Source of the DNA: the human T2T-CHM13v2.0 reference genome, Homo sapiens
Length of the DNA stretch: 64,000 nucleotides
Direction of reading: 5' to 3'
Assembly: GCA_009914755.4 (NCBI GenBank)
Contig: CP068257.2
Coordinates: 27,008,001 to 27,072,000, forward strand
Translations under genes and position numbers: made by a program
Notes under the pieces: generated by a model
Databases searched by the model: none
What the model was told of the DNA's origin: nothing
The model's input: only the letters and a program-made list of their open reading frames with translations
Shown: in pieces, positions 7,551-41,030 of the stretch
Position numbering within the stretch: position 1 is the first letter of the stretch
How the letters are laid out: the number at the start of each line of letters is the position of its first letter

Positions 7551-7654
7551 TTTCTTCCTTTTCTTTCTTTTTTCCTTTCTTTCTCTCTTTTCTTCCTCCC
7601 TTCCTTCCTTCCTTCCTCCCTCCCTCCCTTCCTTCTTTTCTGTCTTTCTTTCCT
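7551..7654. repeat. (TTCC)n/(CTTT)n polypyrimidine microsatellite (GGAA-type on the opposite strand)
   Basis: tttcttccttttctttcttttttcctttctttctctcttttcttcctcccttccttccttccttcctccctccctcccttccttcttttctgtctttctttcc. The overlapping ORFs 7453-7728 (-) and 7517-7717 (+) are low-complexity artefacts. Confidence 0.95.
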
Positions 7655-7929: not shown

Positions 7930-8360
7930 AGACCACAGCATTTATTTCCCAGTCTTGAAGGGATGAAGTGAAAAAATCAGCAGAAACCAGCAGATGGCCA
8001 AGAAAGTGATCCCTAGATACCCTCATTGCTCATTAGCCTAAGATACTCCCACGAGTGCCATGACAGTTTACAAATGCCAGGCAATTACCTGGGAGTTACT
8101 GACCCTTTCTGTGGCATTGACCCAAAAGTTACTGTTCCTTTCCTAGAAAGTTCTGAATCACCCACCCCTCAATTTGCATTAACCCTCCCCTTAATTTGCA
8201 TGTAATTGAAAGTGGGTGTGATTATAAAGAGAGATGCCAAGAGTCCATACATTGCCAACTCTCGGCACACTTCATGTGAGTTAGCCCTGCTCCACAAGGA
8301 GCAGTACTGGTCACTAAAGGATGTCTAACACCACTGGCTCATCCTTAAAAATATTTCCTG
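7930..8360. repeat. ERV-type LTR-like fragment, family uncertain
   Basis: Shares the motif cattgct...gccatgacagtttaca[a/g]atgcca[g/t]gcaa...ttac with the block at 29270-29400. Recalled from memory as an ERV1-class LTR (MER/LTR family) but not verified. Confidence 0.35.
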
Positions 8361-20458: not shown

Positions 20459-20497
20459 GATTAATTTATAAACACATTTGAAAACTTATTTATATTT

Positions 20498-20567
20498 CTT
20501 TTTTTTTTTTTTTTTTTTTTTTACTTTTTAATTTTCTTTTTTTTTTTTTTAATTTTTTTTTTTTTTT
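20498..20567. repeat. Interrupted poly-T tract (complement of an L1 poly-A tail)
   Basis: About 70 bp of T with a few a/c interruptions, directly abutting the inverted L1 3' tip at 20568. Confidence 0.9.
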
Positions 20568-21029
20568 ATTATAGTCTAAGTTTTAGGGTACATCACACTC
20601 TGGGGACTGTGGTGGGGTCGGGGGAGGGGGGAGGGATAGCATTGGGAGATATACCTAATGCTAGATGACACGTTAGTGGGTGCAGCGCACCAACATGGCA
20701 CATGTATACATATGTAACTAACATGGCAATCATTAAAAAGTCAGGCAACAACAGGTGCTGGAGAGGATGTGGAGAAATAGGAACACTTTTACACTGTTGG
20801 TGGGACTGTAAACTAGTTCAACCATTGTGGAAGTCGGTGTGGCGATTCCTCAGGGATCTAGAACTAGAAATACCATTTGACCCAGCCATCCCATTACTGG
20901 GTATATACCCAAAGGACTATAAATCATGTTGCTATAAAGACACATGCACACGTATGTTTATTGCGGCACTATTCACAATAGCAAAGACTTGGAACCAACC
21001 CAAATGTCCAACAATGATAGACTGGATTA
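20568..21029 (+). mobile_element. Rearranged young-type L1 3' fragment: inverted extreme 3' tip, then 3'UTR segment (+), then ORF2 C-terminal segment (+)
   Basis: 20568-20593 tattatagtctaagttttagggtacat is the reverse complement of the L1 3' terminus atgtaccctaaaacttagactataata. 20594-20722 cacactctggggactgtggtggggtcgggggaggggggagggatagcattgggagatatacctaatgctagatgac...gtaactaac is a plus-oriented 3'UTR segment of the L1HS/L1PA2 type. 20723-21029 atggcaatcattaaaaagtcaggcaacaacaggtgctggagagg...ccaacaatgatagactggatta is plus-oriented ORF2 C-terminal coding that lies upstream of that 3'UTR segment in L1. ORF 20702-21040 translates to an L1 ORF2p C-terminal peptide about 97% identical to the one at 37540-37845. 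Confidence 0.85.
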
Positions 21030-26169: not shown

Positions 26170-28099
26170 AAGAAAGTGATGCAACAGGTAATATATTGTA
26201 TATCTGAGTTGCACTCTGGGCTTTTGGGCTTAATGGGAGTGTCTTGCTATGAAGAAGAAAGATGTATGGAACAAGGAGGGGCAAGAGCCTTCACGGGAGG
26301 CTCAGGCCTCAGAGACTGCAGCCAGCTTTGGATCTTGCCTGTGATCCATGTATTTCTCCTGTACTTCATCTTTGCCTTTTGAGGGACCAAACAAATGTGG
26401 AAACTTAATCACGTCTTCGAAAGAAAGTGAGAACAGGCAGTGGTGGGAGAGAAGCAGTGCACTGTTGGAAGAAAGAGTAAAGGTCCAAATAAATCCTGTC
26501 TGAAAACCCAAGGTAATAAAGTGGGCCCTAATCATGAGAGGAAGATTTCAGGTTAACGCTACCATGCATCCTCCTTTTGCAGGCAACCTCTTCCTCTGGC
26601 TGCTAGAAAAGGAAGAATCCTCTTCATATATCCAGCCTTAGAGGTGAGCAAAGACCAACTCTGTATTCATTTGACATGAAATCAAACATTTCTGGGACTA
26701 GAAGAAGTGATTTCCCAGCCCAGAAGACTATGATGATAAATACAACCTGGATTACTGCAGTGTGGTAGGAGTGGGGTGGGCAAATAACCTGGTGTTTATA
26801 ACGTGTTTAGAAGACTCAGAGTGCTTGATGCTAATTCCCAAGAAGCTGAGTTTCGTATAGCAATGCCAGGGATATCATCATTCCATAAATCTCGTTTACA
26901 CCCTTAGTCACTAGGAAGCTTGGCTTTTTTATTACATCTGACGGTTGCTTCCACAATCATAAACATGATCCTCTGAATCATTTCCACTCTTTGAAAATGT
27001 TAGTTTTAATGTCACACGTAAATTCTGCCATAGCACTAATATTCACAATTTAATTTGCAAAACCTTTAATCCAATATATGGTCTCCCCTATCATTTCGCT
27101 GGAAAACAGAAAATTGTGAAATTCTGTGACTTATTCACTCTACAGTGGAGCAGAACAACTCAAGACCCATCAATCACATGACCAGTCATAGGCAAGTTTA
27201 AAGTACACGTTGTTTTTCAATCACCAGAGCACATTAGATAGTAGGCTCTTTTGCAAAGCAAACTCCCAAAAAAAGAAACATAGGCTTAAATAGTTATCAT
27301 TCTCATTAAACATTTGTCTAGTTCTCTCTTCACTTGAAACAGATGTTAAATCATTTGGAACTTCCCTTTGCTGAGTCCTGTCCTCCACAGAGGCTTGTTC
27401 TCTGTCTCTTTCTCACCCTCTGTCTTCCTCAGGTTAACAACTGCCCCAAGTACCAATCTATAAGGGATACTGCCTATCACTGGGTGTTAAATTTCCACTG
27501 GAAATTTAAGATGTAGAAAATGGTATTGACCATAATATTTTCCAAGGAGAGGACTGCATATGTTTACAAAGAGAGCTTTAAGTCATTTGTAGCCAAAAAG
27601 ACTCTTGAGGTGAATCCTAGAATTGCAAATAAATGTTTGCTCCTCTGCCCTGTCAGAAATGTGCAAGGCTCCTGTTTGGTAGAAAAGAACATGCAAGTTT
27701 TGGGGCCTGAGCTGAATTTCTCCATTAATAGAGAAGAAAGCGGGCTCTCCAGGAGGTGGTCTTTCTCCTCTTGTTCCCCAACCAGTGTACACCCCTCCTT
27801 TAAATTAAATGTAGAGAGAATATTTAAAGACAATGGTTTAAGGTGGTGCTGTATTAGTAGGCTATCCAAGACACTTGTATGACTCAAAGCAACCAAATGC
27901 CCTGCTCTTTTTCTCTTCTTGACGCTGCTCTCTCTTTCCATTTTTCTTGACTTGTTTTAATTTAAAAATTAAAAATGTAATTCTTCCCTCACAGATGTGA
28001 GCTAAGTCTCAGCTCTTCCTTTTATCTCCCAACTCCTGATTCAACTAAGCAAACAAAAAATACCTTCCTTTTCTATTCTTCCTTCTACATGATAAACGC

Positions 28100-28403
28100 A
28101 AAAAGAAGGAAGGCAGAGAGAGAGAGAAAGAAAAAAAATAAAAAAAGAGAGAAAGAAAAAGAAAGAGAAAGAAAGAAAGAAAGAAAGAAAGAGAAAGGAG
28201 AGAGGGAGGGAGGAAGGAAAGAAAGAAAAGAGAAGAGAGAGAAAGAGAGAGGGAGGAAGGAAGAAAGAAAGGAAGGAAGCAAAGAAGGAAGGAGGGAAGG
28301 AAAGAAAAAGAGGAAGGAAGGAAGGAAGGGAGGGAGAGAGGGAGGGGAAGGGAGAGAAAGAAAAACAGAAAGAAGAAAGGATGAAAGGGGGAAGAAAGAA
28401 AGA
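28100..28403. repeat. Polypurine GA-rich compound microsatellite (GAAA)n/(GGAA)n/(GA)n, ~300 bp
   Basis: The top strand is purine-only for about 300 bp (agagagagagagaaagaaaaaaaataaaaaaagagagaaagaaaaagaaagagaaagaaagaaagaaagaaag...ggaaggaaggaaggaagggagggagagagggaggggaagggagag). The three overlapping ORFs at 28041-28445 are low-complexity artefacts. Confidence 0.97.
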
Positions 28404-28562
28404 TTGTCTAGAAAAATGCATGATAGTGTTTTAGCAATCATTTAAATGAATCATTCATAACTGTTTTCTCCAATCAGAAATTTGTCTGATTCAGAAAATT
28501 TAGAAGTATTTAAAGAAAAGAAATTTGTCTGACACTACTTCTCTTTACATTGCTGAAAGTGG

Positions 28563-29078
28563 ATTTAAATCTACTTTCTCACTCCAAAAATAAACTTCAG
28601 ATAAATTTATATTCTCAGCAACATTCCAAACTCAAACACTTAGCTCACATATAACCCACATATATGGTCATATGAATATATGACTTGAAAAAGCTACATA
28701 AGTGAAAAATGCATAAAATGAATAGTTTCTCTTGCATTATAATCAACAATGTCCTTCAAGGTTTGAGGACAAAACATTCGTTAAAATTAACCACTCAGAT
28801 AACTCAGATGGTAGTGTCAGATTTAAATCTACTTTCTCACTCCAAAAATAAACTTCAGATAAATTTATATTCTCAGCAACATTCCAAACTCAAACACTTA
28901 GCTCACATATAACCCACATATATGGTCATATGAATATATGACTTGAAAAAGCTACATAAGTGAAAAATGCATAAAATGAATAGTTTCTCTTGCATTATAA
29001 TCAACAATGTCCTTCAAGGTTTGAGGACAAAACATTCGTTAAAATTAACCACTCAGATAACTCAGATGGTAGTGTCAG
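28563..29078. repeat. Tandem duplication, 2 x 258 bp, apparently 100% identical
   Basis: Unit atttaaatctactttctcactccaaaaataaacttcagataaatttatattctcagcaacattccaaactcaaacacttagctcacatataacccacatatatggtcatatgaatatatgac...cactcagataactcagatggtagtgtcag occurs at 28563-28820 and again at 28821-29078. I found no mismatch on base-by-base reading. Confidence 0.9.
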
Positions 29079-29640
29079 AGGCATTTGAACCAGAGCAACT
29101 CCATCTTAAATAGAAGCTGGGTAAAATGAGGCTGAAACCTACTGGGCTGCATTCCCTGAGGGTTAAGGCATTCTAAGTCACAGGATGAGATACGAAGTCA
29201 GCAAAAGATACAGGTCACAAAGACCTTGCTGATAAAACACGCTGCAGTAAAGAAGCCGGCCAAAACCCACTAAAAGCAAGATGGCGACAAGAGTAATCTC
29301 TGGTCATCCTCATTGCTACACTCCCATTAGCGCCATGACAGTTTACAGATGCCATGGCAACATCAGGAAGTTACCCCATATGGTCTAAAAAGGGGAGGCA
29401 TGAATAATCCACTCCTTGTTTAGCATATCATCAAGAAATAACCATAAAAAATTGGCAACCAGCAGCCCTCAGGACTGCTCTATGGAGTAGCCATTCTTTT
29501 ATACCTTTACTTTCCTAATACACTTGCTTTCACTTTATAGACTTGTCCTGAATTCTTTCTCGCTCAAGATCCAAGAACCCTGTCTTGGAGTCTGGATCTG
29601 GACCCCCTTCTGGTAACAGCAGCCCCAGTCAAAGACTCTC
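29079..29640. repeat. ERV-type LTR-like repeat, family uncertain
   Basis: aaagcaagatggcgacaagagtaatctctggtcatcctcattgctacactcccattagcgccatgacagtttacagatgccatggcaacatcaggaagttacc...cttgctttcactttatagacttgtcctgaattctttctcgctcaagatccaagaaccctgtcttggagtctggatctggaccccc looks like an LTR U3-R region with an aataaa-like signal upstream. Related motif at 7930-8360. Confidence 0.45.
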
Positions 29641-31640: not shown

Positions 31641-33114
31641 AAAAGACACAATCCCAAATATCATCATCTTGAAATCCTGAAAGATCAAAATCCTGAAAAT
31701 ACAGAGACAGCCAGGTGGGAGGGGGTCCCGAGAGAAACTCCAACTGGCCTGCACACTGGGAGGAGCATGCACTGGGGTGTAGCCACAGAAGTTCGCGCCT
31801 TTGCAGCAGCGAGGAGCCTGGCCCCTCCTCTTCCTGGGTGGTACCCAGGATTCAATCTGTGAGGCAGGAAGCACACTAGCGGACCCTGGCTTTGTGGAGG
31901 GTCCCTATTTCCCCTTTTTCCCCCTTTTGCCCAATAAATTCCATTATTCTCACCCTTCAAATTGTCTGTGAGCCTAATTTTTTATGGCCATGTGGCAAGG
32001 ACCCACATCTTTAGTGGAACTAAGGAGAGAGTCCTACAACAATATAATTCTGGAAAAAATGACTTTTAAAATTCTTTAAGATGGAGCCAAGATGGCCGAA
32101 TAGGAACAGCTCCAGTCTACAGCTCCCAGCGTGAGCGACGCAAAAGATGGGTGATTTCTGCATTTCCAACTGAAGTACCGGGTTCATCTCACTGGGGAGT
32201 GTCAGAAAGTGGGTGCAGGACAGTGGGTGCAGCACACCAAGTGTGAGCTGAAGCAGGGCAAGGCATCGCCTCACCCGGTAAGCGCAAGGGGTCAGGGAAT
32301 TCCCTTTCCTAGTCAAAGAAAGGGGTGACAGACAGCACCTGGAAAATCGGGTCACCTCCACCCTAATACTGTGCTTTTCCAACAGTCTTAGCAAACGGCA
32401 CAACAGAAGATTATATCCCACGCCTGGCTCGGAGGGTCCTACACCCACGGAGCCTTGCTCCTTGTTAGCACAGCACTCTGAGATCAAACTGCAAGGTGGC
32501 AGCGAGGCTGGGGGACGGGTGTCCACCATTGCCGAGGCTTGAGTAGGTAAACAAAGCGGCTGGGAAGCTCGAACTGGGTGGAGCCCACCACAGCTCAAGG
32601 AGGCCTGCCTGGCTCTGTAGACTCCACCTCTGGGGGCAGGGCATAGCCAAACAAAAGGCAGCAGTATCCTCTGCAGACTTAAATGTCCCTGTCTGACAGC
32701 TTTGAAGAGACTAGTGGTTCTCCCAGCACGCAGCTGGAGATCTGAGAACGGACAGACTGCCTCCTCAAGTGGGTCCCTGACCCCCGAGTAGCCTAACTGG
32801 GAGGCACCCCCCAGTAGGGGCAGACTGACACCTCACACGGCTGGGTATTCCTCTGAGACAAAACTTCCAGAGGAACAATCAGGCAGCAACATTTGCTGTT
32901 CACCAATATTCGCTGTTCTGCAGCCTCCGCTGCTGATACCCAGGCAAACAGCGTCTGGAGTGGACCTCCAGCAAACTCCAAAAGATATGCAGCTGAGGGT
33001 CCTGAGTGTTAGAAGGAAAACTAACAAACAGAAAGGACATCCACACCAAAACCCCATCTGTACGTCACCATCATCAAAGACCAAAGGTAGATAAAACCAC
33101 AAAGATGGGGAAAA

Positions 33115-34118
33115 AACAGCAGAAAAACTGGAAACTCTAAAAATCAGAGCGCCTCTCCTCCTCCAAAGGAATGCAGCTCCTCACCAGCAATGGAACAAAG
33201 CTGGATGGAGAATGACTTTAACAAGTTGAGAGAAGAAGGCTTCAGACGATCAAACTACTCTGAGCTAAAGGGGGAAGTTTGAACCCATGGCAAAGAAGTT
33301 AAAAACCTGGAAAAAAATTAGACAAATGGCTAACTAGAATAACCAATGCAGAGAAGTCCTTAAAGGACCTGATGGAGCTGAAAACCAAGGCATGAGAACT
33401 ACATGATGAATGCATAAGCCTCAGTAGCTGATTTGATCAACTGGAAGAAAGGGTCTCAGTGATGGAATATCATATGAACGAAATGAAACGAGAAGAGAAG
33501 TTTAGAGAAAAAAGAATAAAAACAAACGAACAAAGCCTCCAAGAAATATGGGACTATGTGAAAAGACCAAATCTACGTCTGATTGGTGTACCTGAAACTG
33601 ACGGGGAGAATGGAACCAAGCTGGAAAACACTCTGCAGGATATTACCCAGGAGAACTTCCCCAATCTAGCAAGGCGGGCCAACATTCAAATTCAGGAAAT
33701 ACAGAGAACACCACAAAGATACTCCTCAAGAAGAGCTACTCCAAGACACATAATTGTCAGATTCACCAAAGTTGAAATGAAGGAACAAATGTTAAGGGCA
33801 GCCAGAGAGAAAGGTCGGGTAACCCACAAAGGGAAGCCCATCAGACTAACAGCAGATCTCTCAGCAGAAACTCTACAAGCCAGAAGAGAGTGGGGGCCAA
33901 TGTCCAACATTCTTAAAGAAAAGAATTTTCAACCCAGAATTTCATATCCAGCCAAACTAAGCTTCATAAGTGAAGGAGAAATAAAATCCTTTACAGACAA
34001 GCAAATGCTGAGAGATTTTGTTACCACCAGGCCTGCCCTAAAAGAGTTCCTGAAGGAAGCACTAAACATGGAAAGGAATAACCGGTACCAGTCACTGCAA
34101 AAACATGCCAAATTGTAA
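33115..34118 (+). pseudogene. L1 ORF1p (disrupted)
   Basis: ATG ggg aaa aaa cag cag aaa aac tgg aaa ctc TAA gives a stop after 11 codons. The downstream frame 33459-34118 encodes 219 aa MMEYHMNEMKREEKFREKRIKTNEQSLQEIWDYVKRPNLRLIGVPE...RISYPAKLSFISEGEIKSFTDKQMLRDFVTTRPALKEFLKEALNMERNNRYQSLQKHAKL, the RRM and C-terminal domain of L1 ORF1p. Confidence 0.93.
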
Positions 34119-34181
34119 AGACCATCAAGGCTAGGAAGAAAACGCATCAACTAATGAGCAAAATAACCAGCTAACATCATA

Positions 34182-38012
<3,831 letters not shown>

Positions 38013-40010
38013 ACAATGAGAACACATGGACACAGGAAGGGGAACATCACACACTGGGGCCTGTGTAGGGGGAGCGGGGAGGGATAGCATTAGGAGATAT
38101 ACCTAATGTTAAATGACAAGTTAATGGGTGCAGCACACCAACATGGCACATGTATACATATGTAACAAACCTGCACGTTGTGCACGTTGTGCACATGTAC
38201 CCTAAAACTTAAAGTATAATAAAAAAATTAAATTAAAAAATAAAAATAAAATAAAATTCTTTAAAATATTTCTATATTATATTTATGATTATATTTATAT
38301 TATATTTTAAAGGGGATTTATTTCAGAAACACACAAACACAAGAGAACACTTCATAAGCCACTTTACACAATAAAATAGGTAATAGTAACATACACATTT
38401 TGGCAAGCATAAACACTGAGGTATACTAATAACAGTCACACAGGTATAACAATTATGAGCAGATGAACAATATTCATAAAGAAATAGGTCAAAAAGCAAA
38501 ATGTATGAACGCTTATCACTATGGCTGGTAACTGTGTGCACCCAGCTTTATAACTGCAGTCATCTGAAACACTGTGATGAACAACCCAAGTCTTTTGATA
38601 AGATTAATCCAAAACCATGATGGGTCACTGCCGCGTCATCACTGTAAGTAGCCCAAAGAGCCAGTATCTCGAGAAATTTTATCTTTCACAAATGCAAATG
38701 TACAAAAAGGATATCTCTTATATAACATTTTTACATACACGCACAATGTTTACACACCTAGTCAACATTGTGATGATGCACGTTCATGGAATCACATTTG
38801 TAAAAAATTACATAAAACAAATTAGAACTCTCTGAAAGTCTTAATACAATTTACATCTCCAGTGTTAGCGATTATGAAAAGGTGAAATATATAGCACAGC
38901 ATATTGTAAAAAATAATGCCAACAATTTTAAATAGTGAAAAACACTAAAAATAAAAGAAAATTTAACATGAAAAAACACATTGCAAAGAAAGACTGTGAG
39001 CAATTGCACACAGACAGCCCCTAAAAGCTAACTTTCATAATCACTAACTATATTCTGAAGTCTGGCATCATGAGAAGCTTCTTTTTATCTTTTGGGATAT
39101 GTATCTCCTTGGAGAATATGTTGACATTTATTTTCTATGTGGCACTGCTCTTTTTAAAATTACTGTATAATTCAATAGACACCAACATAAGCATTCCCAT
39201 CTTAAACTATTAAACTCTCCCATCTTCTGTGCTATGCTTATATGTTGTTTTGGATACTCAGAAATCCATTCCACATGCACCTATATGCAGACCACAAATT
39301 TGGCAGAAACAATACTGGTGATTCAACAGCAACACCATTGTGTGTTTCCTTATCCTACCGTGCACATAATTATTCTCAAACACTAAGTAACTTCTCTGGC
39401 TTCTTCAGCCAAATGCAGCTTTAATTCTTTAAAATCTGGAATGTTGTCAGCTAGGAAGGAATGTCAATGCAGGCAAATGACACATTTTTTAAACTGAAGT
39501 TTTCACTGGACCAATTCATCCATCTGAATTTCCCTCCAAATGCACTAGGCTAAACGGAAAAACAAACTTCATTAGTAATACCTTGAAATTCACTTTTATA
39601 ATCCTTTATGACACCTAATTTCGAGTCTGTCATTACGGTTTGGGAATTCAATTGAAATCCATTTCCTTCTGCATAAAGACTACAAGGTAATAGTTCAACC
39701 TGACATGATGCAACCATCCTGTGACTGTGACTTTCATCATTTTAGACATAAGGGATATTATACTGCAGGGATTTTCATCATTTGGGATTTCATCATTTGA
39801 GATTACGGCATTCAGGATTGTGTCTTTCAGAATTATGATCCAAACCTGACATCAACACGTGAATGGGGGATGCACAATCCCACCCATAGTACTTGGGAAC
39901 TCCAGTGGACCATGGGCTCACTTGAGCTCCAAGCTCCTGGGTCGAACATCCAACTGCCCTTCCTCACCTTGATGACCAAGTACCTGTGAGATCAGCTCTA
40001 TTCTACAAGG

Positions 40011-40305
40011 AATGGTTATGCACACTTAGATTTCTAGTGGCCACCAAAAAGATTTAAATGGTGTAAAAAGTAAACAAAGTCAGACACTAGTTAAAGAGGT
40101 AAAGACAGATTTTCATCAGTAATGTACTATTGCAATAGGGAAATGAGTTCTGCATGAACCGAAGTCAACTTCAATTTGTGGAGAGGTGACTGGTGTTTTA
40201 AAGGGAGAATGAGAGAGTTGGGAGGGGGCAGGTATTAGAGTCAGGGAAGTAAAAAAAACCTACAAAAAACAGAAATAGGGAATCGGTTCATGTGAAGTAT
40301 CTCAG
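40011..40305 (+). repeat. Copy 1 of a ~295-bp direct repeat of unknown family
   Basis: tggttatgcacacttagatttctagtggccaccaaaaagatttaaatggtgtaaaaagtaaacaaagtcagacac...gggagaatgagagagttgggagggggcaggtattagagtcagggaagtaaaaaaaacctacaaaaaacagaaatagggaatcggttcatgtgaag. About 90% identical to 40739-41030. Confidence 0.85.
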
Positions 40306-40738
40306 GATGCAAGACTTCAGAATATAGTTAGTGATCATAAAAGTCAGCTCTTAGGGGCTACCTCTATGCAATTGCCTTGCCATATGTTTTCCATATGTTA
40401 GATTTTCCTTTTTTAAGTCTTTTTCACTATTTTAAATTGTTGGCATTATTTTGTACAATACACTATGATATGTATTTCATCTTTTCAACTGATCATGAGC
40501 CTTTATGTCCCAAAAGCCAGTATACCAGAAAGGACAGGAAGTTGAAGTTGAAGAACAGCAAGACTTTCATCAGAAAGTCACAAAGAGCCACAGTGATGAC
40601 TCCCTCTTTTTTAAACTTTAGCTAAAGGCTGTGGTAAAGTGGAAAAGGAAAAATATATTAAGAAAGCAGAAGATTTAAGACCCCACTGACTCTCAAACCA
40701 AAACAAAGCCCATCGTTGCAAACTTACAGAAGCCAGTT

Positions 40739-41030
40739 TGGTTATGCACACTTAGATTTCTAGTGGTCACCAAAAAGGTTGAAATGGTGTCAAGAATAAA
40801 CAAAGCCGGATGCTAAAGAGGTAAGGACAGATTTTCATCAGTAATGTACTATTGCAATAAGGAAACATGTTCTGTATAAACTGAACTCAGCTTCAATTTG
40901 GAGGGAGGTGACTGTTGTTTTAAAGGGAGAATGAGAGAGTAGGGAGGGGGCAGGTATTAGAGTCAGGGAAGTAAAAAATTACAAAAAAAACAGAAACAGG
41001 GAATTGGTTCATGTAAAATCCACACAACTT
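40739..41030 (+). repeat. Copy 2 of the ~295-bp direct repeat
   Basis: tggttatgcacacttagatttctagtggtcaccaaaaaggttgaaatggtgtcaagaataaacaaagccggatgc...gggagaatgagagagtagggagggggcaggtattagagtcagggaagtaaaaaattacaaaaaaaacagaaacagggaattggttcatgtaaaa. Confidence 0.85.

What the first reader, a model, noticed from the sequence alone, without database searches (positions are those of the whole stretch)
28563..29078. Perfect 2 x 258-bp tandem duplication beside a 300-bp polypurine tract
The two 258-bp units (28563-28820 and 28821-29078) show no mismatch on reading. All other interspersed repeats here carry 3-15% divergence. The duplication is therefore very recent on an evolutionary scale, copy-number polymorphic (VNTR-like), or an assembly artefact. 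It lies 160 bp downstream of a ~300-bp GA-rich microsatellite (28100-28403) and directly before an LTR-like element. Purine tracts of that kind are established H-DNA/triplex-forming, replication-slippage-prone sequence. The unit is not a known SINE and has no poly-A or TSD, so unequal exchange or replication slippage is the natural explanation rather than retrotransposition.
Basis: seen in the sequence. Interest (0 to 1): 0.5.

Follow-up and report, generated by a model that had tools for sequence, protein, structure and literature searches.

The report
Perfect 258-bp tandem duplication, human DNA
A 258-base stretch of non-coding human DNA has been copied once, head to tail, without a single difference; this is a real but ordinary kind of young structural change, and I found no sign of a function.

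Summary
Window 28562-29079 is an exact period-258 repeat of 518 nt: two identical 258-nt units plus a 2-nt "GA" shared at the junction. It has no mismatch and no indel, there is no similarity beyond either edge, and the 64-kb window holds no third copy. The window is human. It carries Alu, L1 and THE1/MST elements and strong CpG depletion, and nine public human-derived contigs match the neighbouring 1.8 kb at 99.5-100%. The duplicated DNA is AT-rich unique sequence with no family match for its junction ORF and no Rfam match. The structure fits one homology-independent duplication event, from a replication template switch or from break repair. It does not fit unequal crossing-over, because the segment has no flanking homology. 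Zero differences in 258 nt only limits the age to about 6-12 million years at 95%, so "very recent or polymorphic" is not shown. The 2-nt microhomology arises by chance in 18% of random placements. The adjacent 304-nt purine tract is a genuine H-DNA-type motif and only 1.5% of the window lies that close to such a tract, but a causal link rests on one event. I could not test other humans or apes, because no public contig I could reach covers the unit. Interest is low.

The parts
28562..28819 (.). Tandem duplication, copy 1 (258 nt, 30% GC, one CpG)
   Evidence: identical to copy 2. Its first 10 nt, GATTTAAATC, are a perfect palindrome.
28820..29077 (.). Tandem duplication, copy 2 (258 nt)
   Evidence: 100% identical to copy 1, with no indel.
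29078..29079 (.). 2-nt 'GA' junction microhomology, also present at 28562-28563 and 28820-28821. It makes the breakpoint register ambiguous by 2 nt.
   Evidence: the exact period-258 run extends 2 nt past two full units; microhomology of 2 nt or more occurs in 18% of random 258-nt placements in this window, so it says little about mechanism.
28819..28830 (.). Novel junction, ...GTAGTGTCA|GATTTAAATC.... The join lengthens the 10-nt palindrome to 12 nt (AGATTTAAATCT).
   Evidence: The junction is a clean head-to-tail join, with no inserted or inverted bases.
28100..28403 (+). Degenerate (GA/GAAA/GGAA)n purine tract, 98.4% purine, which meets the H-DNA motif definition. It ends 158 nt upstream of the duplication.
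   Evidence: purine runs of 140 and 85 nt; perfect purine mirror repeat with 18-nt arms and a 1-nt spacer at 28161-28197, the best in the window.
28404..28561 (.). Unique left flank between the purine tract and the duplication. It contains the left arm of an 11-nt inverted repeat (TCTGACACTAC, 28528-28538).
   Evidence: no other copy in the window, and the inverted-repeat partner GTAGTGTCAGA ends exactly at the right breakpoint (28811-28821 and 29069-29079); a comparable configuration occurs at 0.16% of pseudo-positions; the repeat is not used in the minimum-energy fold of the reconstructed ancestor.
29073..29621 (+). LTR-like element (probable solo LTR) abutting the duplication. If it starts at TGTCAG (29073), the duplicated segment includes its first 5-7 nt.
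   Evidence: Read from the sequence: TG...CA ends, an AATACA/ATAAAA-type signal region, and a U5-like end ...GGTAACA, with flanking 4-mers GTAG/GCAG matching at 3 of 4. The family was not identified because no repeat library was available. Only a related core of about 130 nt is found at 7964-8099.

Best explanation
This is a genuine one-step, head-to-tail duplication of 258 bp of unique, non-coding, AT-rich human DNA. It arose after the neighbouring LTR-like element was already in place and is evolutionarily young. The most probable age is within the last few million years, and the 95% bound is about 6-12 Myr. It formed by a mechanism that does not need homology. My preferred version is a backward template switch of the growing DNA strand during replication. 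The 3' end, having just copied ...GTAGTGTCAGA, disengaged, re-annealed 258 nt upstream through the 2-nt 'GA' at most, and copied the segment a second time. Fork stalling at the adjacent 304-nt homopurine-homopyrimidine tract, 158 nt away, is a plausible trigger. The duplication has no detectable function. It is a neutral structural change of a kind that is abundant in the human genome. What is shown: the structure, the exact identity of the copies, the clean junction, the absence of flanking homology, the non-coding nature and the human origin. What is inferred: the age range, the replication-based mechanism and the role of the purine tract.
For: The repeat is an exact 2 x 258 with a 2-nt overlap and no similarity outside it. 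The junction is clean, with no filler or inversion. The window holds no other copy of the unit, so it is not an interspersed repeat. There is no Rfam family in the window. No Pfam match exists for the junction ORF, and no homologue exists for any reading frame of the unit among 5.8 billion proteins. The sequence is human: Alu and THE1 sequences, L1 domains, a CpG observed/expected ratio of 0.165, and nine human-derived contigs at 99.5-100% identity. The purine tract satisfies the H-DNA definition of a homopurine mirror repeat (definition in PMC11667243), and such motifs stall replication forks. Only 1.5% of the window lies within 160 nt of a pure purine or pyrimidine run of 40 nt or more. Perfect 2x tandem duplications are very common in hg38, with 423,331 reported and more than half carrying at least 1 nt of microhomology (preprint 10.64898/2026.02.28.708716). 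That preprint links their formation to Okazaki-fragment processing (Rad27/FEN1).
Against: The 2-nt microhomology is no more than chance gives (P = 0.18), so the junction does not separate a replication template switch from end joining of a broken chromosome. The link to the purine tract is a single post-hoc co-location. The duplication lies 158 nt from the tract and not at its edge. No single-copy allele or orthologue was recovered, so the ancestral single-copy state is inferred and not observed. Gene conversion between the two adjacent copies could keep an older duplication identical and so weaken the age bound.
Confidence: 0.8

Rival explanations
1. Same event, different mechanism: repair of a staggered double-strand break or of two nearby nicks. 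The single-stranded overhangs are filled in (Pol alpha-primase with CST, then NHEJ, or Pol theta-mediated end joining) and ligated, which duplicates the sequence between the two nicks.
For: The junction is clean with 0-2 nt of microhomology, as expected for NHEJ-type joins. Schimmel et al. (PMC8355091) show experimentally that breaks with complementary 3' overhangs give tandem duplications, mostly without microhomology in wild-type cells. H-DNA motifs also provoke breaks (PMC6011834 and PMC4937311).
Against: The experimentally characterised duplications are small: the paper discusses insertions under 100 bp and 50-nt overhangs. A 258-nt duplication would need nicks 258 nt apart. Nothing in the sequence separates this from a replication template switch.
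Confidence: 0.3
2. Assembly or cloning artefact: the real genome has one copy and the second was created during assembly or polishing.
For: Perfect identity is what an artefact would give, and I recovered no independent sequence covering the junction.
Against: The whole structure is only 518 nt, shorter than a Sanger read and far shorter than long reads. The usual causes of false duplication do not apply at this scale (inference). The surrounding 1.8 kb agrees with nine independent contigs at 99.5-100%. The junction has the ordinary look of a biological tandem duplication.
Confidence: 0.05
3. Unequal homologous crossing-over (NAHR) between pre-existing direct repeats that flanked the segment.
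For: Once two copies exist, this mechanism can change copy number.
Against: Tested and not met. The sequences at the two breakpoints share only 2 nt, and the 24 positions on either side of the run match at about the chance level. There was no homologous substrate for the founding event.
Confidence: 0.02
4. An old duplication, predating the human-chimpanzee split by a wide margin, kept identical by gene conversion between the adjacent copies.
For: Adjacent identical repeats do convert, and the age bound assumes independent divergence.
Against: The other large-period tandem array in the window (53866-54039, period 76) shows 81-83% matches, and no array in the window exceeds 92%. Homogenisation to 100% is therefore not the local norm. 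Complete identity over 258 nt, including the retained CpG, is explained more simply by youth.
Confidence: 0.08
5. The unit is, or lies within, a small non-autonomous DNA transposon bounded by the 11-nt inverted repeat TCTGACACTAC...GTAGTGTCAGA, and transposon-end processing produced the duplication.
For: The right arm of the inverted repeat ends exactly at the right breakpoint. Such a configuration occurs at only 0.16% of pseudo-positions. The 8-mers outside the arms (GAAATTTG and GGCATTTG) match at 6 of 8, which resembles a decayed hAT-type target-site duplication.
Against: The left arm lies 23 nt outside the duplicated segment, so the duplicated unit is not the putative element. No second copy exists in 64 kb. 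The termini do not resemble the usual hAT or Tc1 ends (from memory, not tested). DNA transposons have been inactive in the human lineage for tens of millions of years (established knowledge), whereas the duplication is young. The repeat is not used in the predicted fold of the ancestral strand.
Confidence: 0.03

Closest known systems
Microhomology-mediated or non-homologous tandem duplications (2x TDs) of the human genome
   Same: It has exactly two head-to-tail copies at 100% identity, with 2 nt of microhomology at the junction and single-copy-type flanks. The cited preprint counts 423,331 such perfect 2x duplications in hg38, more than half with at least 1 nt of microhomology.
   Different: The unit of 258 nt is long for this class, which is dominated by short units (PMC8355091 describes TDs as the most common insertions under 100 bp). 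The 2-nt microhomology is not above chance here.
Minisatellite / VNTR
   Same: It is a tandem arrangement of a long unit in non-coding DNA. Once two copies exist, the locus can gain or lose copies by unequal exchange.
   Different: There are only two copies, with no internal variant units, no GC-rich core and no array history. Polymorphism, the defining property of a VNTR, was not testable.
H-DNA (triplex) motif-associated instability, e.g. the PKD1 intron 21 tract and (GAA)n repeats
   Same: A long homopurine-homopyrimidine tract with mirror symmetry lies within 160 nt of a rearrangement breakpoint. Such tracts stall forks and are enriched near breakpoints.
   Different: The documented outcomes are mostly deletions, translocations and repeat-length changes. 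The H-DNA review contains no mention of 'duplication' (0 occurrences). Here the tract itself is intact and the event lies beside it.
Serial replication slippage / FoSTeS-MMBIR template switching
   Same: It is a copy-number gain with minimal junction microhomology and no flanking homology.
   Different: FoSTeS/MMBIR events are typically kilobases to megabases in size and often complex, with insertions, inversions or triplications. This is a simple, small, single switch.

Membership tests
Simple tandem duplication (2x TD) | Two adjacent head-to-tail copies of one segment, with nothing between them | tested here: met
   28562-28819 and 28820-29077, 100% identical and directly abutting.
Simple tandem duplication (2x TD) | A single-copy ancestral state is seen in related genomes or alleles | not testable with these tools
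   No public contig covering the unit was found. No primate genome collection was available.
Microhomology-mediated tandem duplication (MTD) | Microhomology arm of at least 1 nt at the junction (definition in the preprint's methods) | tested here: met
   2-nt 'GA'. The same or more occurs in 18% of random placements, so meeting the criterion does not show that microhomology was used.
NAHR / unequal crossing-over product | Extended homology (tens of nt or more) between the sequences at the two breakpoints | tested here: not met
   identity stops after 2 nt, and the flanking 24 positions match at about the chance level.
SINE or other retroposed copy | 3' poly-A or A-rich tail, a flanking target-site duplication of about 7-20 nt, and multiple dispersed copies | tested here: not met
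   the unit ends ...GGTAGTGTCA, there is no flanking direct repeat beyond 2 nt, and the 64-kb window holds no other copy. Genome-wide copy number was not testable.
VNTR / minisatellite | An array of several units with copy-number polymorphism in the population | tested here: inconclusive
   Copy number is exactly 2.0, so it is not an array. Polymorphism was not testable.
H-DNA-forming motif (for the neighbouring tract) | A homopurine-homopyrimidine run with mirror-repeat symmetry (PMC11667243; search parameters in PMC4937311: stems of 6-50 nt, spacer of 0-7 nt) | tested here: met
   purine runs of 140 and 85 nt, and a perfect mirror repeat with 18-nt arms and a 1-nt spacer at 28161-28197.
H-DNA-forming motif (for the neighbouring tract) | Actual triplex formation or fork stalling in vivo | not testable with these tools
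   This needs chemical or S1 probing, or 2D-gel replication analysis.
Solo LTR (for the element at 29073-29621) | TG...CA termini, a 4-6-nt target-site duplication, U3-R-U5 signals, and membership of a known LTR family | tested here: inconclusive
   TG...CA is present if the start is at 29073. The flanking 4-mers GTAG/GCAG match at 3 of 4. No repeat library was available. The only relative in the window is a core of about 130 nt at 7964-8099, and the conserved motif has no hit in viral contigs.

The most novel reading that the evidence does not exclude
The duplication is a human-specific, still-segregating 1-copy/2-copy structural variant whose formation was triggered by replication-fork stalling at the adjacent 304-nt H-DNA tract. 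That would make it a natural germline example of triplex-motif-induced flanking tandem duplication, an outcome that the H-DNA review I searched (PMC11667243) does not mention.
Probability: 0.15. Interest if true: 0.3.

Novelty: already known. Interest (0 to 1): 0.12.

Why it matters
It matters little on its own. Perfect two-copy tandem duplications are reported in the hundreds of thousands in the human reference, and this one lies in non-coding, repeat-rich DNA with no detectable gene, RNA or conserved ORF. Its modest value is as one clean, large example (258 nt) with both breakpoints resolved to the base, next to a strong H-DNA motif. As such it could serve as one data point in a genome-wide test of whether triplex-prone tracts raise the rate of nearby duplications. 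If it is polymorphic, it would be an easy PCR-sized marker. The check also shows that zero mismatches over a few hundred bases is weak evidence of extreme youth.

Tried and rejected
(1) Finding other alleles or orthologues. Exact look-ups of the junction ORF (67 aa), the right-edge ORF (48 aa), two downstream ORFs (46 and 70 aa) and two minus-strand tract ORFs found nothing. Look-ups of two upstream ORFs did find nine human-derived contigs, but all of them stop at or before 28525. Protein homology searches with the junction ORF and with a six-frame pseudo-protein of the unit plus flanks found nothing. Exact 31-mer and 27-mer scans of metagenome and genome contigs, and a 31-mer scan of viral contigs, found nothing.

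(2) Cruciform or hairpin at the left breakpoint. The 10-nt palindrome GATTTAAATC sits in a weak imperfect palindrome of about 55 nt per arm (74% identity, E = 0.045). The fold is not better than shuffles (z = -1.26), so I rejected it as a driver.

(3) The 11-nt inverted repeat bracketing the unit. It is statistically unusual (0.16%). However, it is absent from the minimum-energy fold of the reconstructed single-copy ancestor (z = -1.67), and its geometry would favour deletion, not duplication. I kept it only as an unexplained oddity.

(4) Coding or RNA function. There are no Pfam, Rfam or homologue hits.

(5) Identifying the LTR family and its exact 5' edge, by comparison with a related fragment at 7964-8099 and by a motif scan of viral contigs. 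This was uninformative.

(6) Locating a host exon so that annotated primate orthologues could be fetched. No exon was recognisable among ORFs of 90 aa or more.

Full report
OBSERVATION. Tandem Repeats Finder reports one array at 28562-29079 with period 258, 2.0 copies, 100% matches, 0% indels and score 1036. The gapless repeat finder gives 28562-28819 and 28820-29077 at 100%. A base-by-base check shows that w[i] = w[i+258] for every i from 28562 to 28821. The periodic stretch is therefore 518 nt, made of two 258-nt units plus a 2-nt 'GA' that is shared by the start of the unit and the first two bases of the right flank. Outside the run the two sides are unrelated, with matches at about the chance level over the next 24 positions on each side. 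The junction...GGTAGTGTCA|GATTTAAATC..., is clean, with no filler bases and no inverted segment. A sensitive blastn search (word size 7) of the unit against the whole 64-kb window finds only the two copies.

CONTEXT. The window is primate, and specifically human. It contains Alu consensus stretches and THE1/MST-type LTR sequence. It also holds a near-full-length L1 on the + strand at about 32.0-38.2 kb, whose ORFs hit the three L1 ORF1p domains, the endonuclease and the reverse transcriptase. CpG is depleted to 0.165 of expectation at 38% GC. Nine independent contigs from human gut metagenomes and Logan runs, recovered through two ORFs just upstream, match 26738-28525 at 99.5-100%. I recognised no host exon among the long ORFs, and no Rfam family reaches threshold anywhere in the window. 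Upstream of the duplication, 28100-28403 is 98.4% purine on the + strand, with uninterrupted purine runs of 140 and 85 nt. It ends 158 nt before the duplication. Directly downstream lies an element with LTR features, read: TG...CA ends if it starts at TGTCAG (29073), a U5-like end ...GGTAACA at 29621, and flanking 4-mers GTAG/GCAG that match at 3 of 4. I could not name its family, because no repeat library was available and the window holds only a related core of about 130 nt at 7964-8099. If the element begins at 29073, the duplicated segment includes its first 5-7 nt. That fits the duplication having occurred after the LTR was in place.

WHAT THE UNIT IS. It is AT-rich (30% GC) unique sequence with one CpG. 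The period is a multiple of three, so a 67-aa ORF runs across the junction. That ORF has no Pfam match. It has no homologue among 5.8 billion clustered proteins, and neither does a six-frame pseudo-protein of the unit plus flanks. The unit has no poly-A tail and no flanking target-site duplication. Nothing indicates a coding or structured-RNA function.

MECHANISM. The founding event cannot have been unequal homologous crossing-over, because the two breakpoints share only 2 nt. The anatomy is that of a one-step, homology-independent tandem duplication. Two established routes produce this.

(a) Replication template switch or backward slippage. The nascent 3' end re-anneals upstream and copies the segment again. 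A recent preprint argues that microhomology-mediated tandem duplication is the dominant route in all domains of life, links it to Rad27/FEN1-dependent Okazaki-fragment maturation, and counts 423,331 perfect 2x duplications in hg38 (10.64898/2026.02.28.708716).

(b) Repair of staggered breaks. Here the overhangs are filled in by Pol alpha-primase/CST and then joined by NHEJ, or joined by Pol theta-mediated end joining (PMC8355091).

The junction does not discriminate between these routes. In this window, 2 nt or more of microhomology occurs in 18% of random 258-nt placements. I prefer (a) for two reasons. The experimentally characterised break-repair duplications are smaller, with 50-nt overhangs and a class described as under 100 bp. 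Also, a strong fork-stalling motif lies 158 nt away. This preference is an inference, not a demonstration.

THE PURINE TRACT. The tract meets the sequence definition of an H-DNA motif, which is a homopurine-homopyrimidine run with mirror symmetry (definition in PMC11667243; search parameters in PMC4937311). It contains a perfect mirror repeat with 18-nt arms and a 1-nt spacer at 28161-28197, the best in the window. Such motifs stall polymerases and forks, and repeat density peaks at rearrangement breakpoints within +/-500 nt. Only 1.5% of this window lies within 160 nt of a pure purine or pyrimidine run of 40 nt or more, so the co-location is suggestive. It is nevertheless one event, examined after the fact. 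The H-DNA review I searched never mentions duplication as an outcome (0 occurrences).

AGE. Zero differences in 258 aligned sites is weaker evidence of youth than it looks. At 0.5-1.0 x 10^-9 substitutions per site per year, the probability of no difference between the copies is 50% at 1.3-2.7 Myr and still 5% at 5.8-11.6 Myr. The duplication is much younger than the surrounding repeats. The best interspersed pairs are 93-97% identical and most are 65-89%. The other large-period tandem array in the window, at 53866-54039, shows 81-83% matches. Even so, the data do not show that the duplication is polymorphic or even human-specific. Gene conversion between adjacent copies would loosen the bound further.

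THINGS EXAMINED AND SET ASIDE. The left breakpoint falls at the first base of a perfect 10-nt palindrome, GATTTAAATC, and the join lengthens it to 12 nt. The local hairpin is not more stable than shuffles (z = -1.26). An 11-nt inverted repeat (TCTGACACTAC at 28528-28538 and GTAGTGTCAGA ending exactly at the right breakpoint) brackets the unit. A comparable configuration is found at only 0.16% of pseudo-positions, and the outside 8-mers match at 6 of 8. That raises the idea of a decayed transposon with terminal inverted repeats. Against this, the left arm lies 23 nt outside the duplicated segment, and no other copy exists in the window. The stem is also absent from the minimum-energy fold of the reconstructed single-copy ancestor (z = -1.67), and its geometry would favour deletion. 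I leave it as an unexplained detail.

WHAT COULD NOT BE DONE. The decisive tests are 1-copy versus 2-copy alleles in people, the state in apes, and spanning reads. All of them need human and primate genome resources that these tools do not hold. I tried to reach human-derived contigs in the public collections by exact ORF look-ups, protein homology and exact DNA patterns. The neighbouring sequence was recovered, but nothing covers the unit. An assembly artefact therefore cannot be formally excluded. I rate it at about 5%, because the whole structure (518 nt) is shorter than a single Sanger or long read and the junction looks biological.

VERDICT. The feature is a real, young, homology-independent tandem duplication beside an H-DNA-type tract. 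'Unequal exchange' is refuted for the founding event. 'Very recent or polymorphic' is unproven, and the tract's causal role is only plausible. The feature belongs to a well-known and very abundant class and shows no sign of function. Interest is low.

Noticed in passing
window 27955-28525 (loci L006-L009): Four scaffolds from four different gut-metagenome samples all cover almost exactly the purine tract plus about one read length on each side (starts 27955-27976, ends 28500-28525). This looks like human reads that escaped host-read removal because they are low-complexity and were then assembled and gene-called as a 118-aa 'protein'.
   Followed up: partly
window 28528-28538 with 28811-28821 and 29069-29079: An 11-nt inverted repeat, TCTGACACTAC / GTAGTGTCAGA, brackets the duplicated unit, and its right arm ends exactly at the right breakpoint. 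The outside 8-mers GAAATTTG and GGCATTTG match at 6 of 8. The configuration is rare by chance (0.16% of pseudo-positions), but it is not used in the predicted fold of the ancestral strand and its meaning is unclear.
   Followed up: partly
window ~32000-38200 (+): A near-full-length L1. A 219-aa ORF (33459-34118) hits the three L1 ORF1p domains, though the trimerisation-domain match starts at profile position 12, and ORF2 is split into at least five pieces (endonuclease 34475-35245, reverse transcriptase 35792-36448). Its 3' part is 97% identical to a fragment at 20723-21022.
   Followed up: partly
window 55700-58100: A second, older L1 3' portion, about 73-86% identical to 35500-37840 of the first L1 and offset by about 20.25 kb in the same orientation.
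   Followed up: no
window 7551-7641: A 91-nt uninterrupted pyrimidine run (purine-rich on the minus strand), the only other long purine-pyrimidine tract in the window. There is no rearrangement beside it.
   Followed up: no
window 53866-54039: A degenerate tandem array, period 76 (2.0-2.3 copies, 81-83% matches), built from a 17-nt sub-unit ATATTTTCACTGATTAG (8 copies, 71% matches). It is an older tandem repeat, useful as a local contrast to the perfect 258-nt duplication.
   Followed up: no
window 56712-56765 and 20495-20568: A (CA)27 microsatellite at 92% matches, and a 73-nt T-rich tract. Both are ordinary simple repeats.
   Followed up: no
window 40092-40268 and 40814-40990: A direct repeat of 177 nt at 89% identity with a spacing of 722 nt. 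Inverted repeats at 38875-39081 pair with 40294-40487 nearby. This is possibly the two ends of one inserted element.
   Followed up: no
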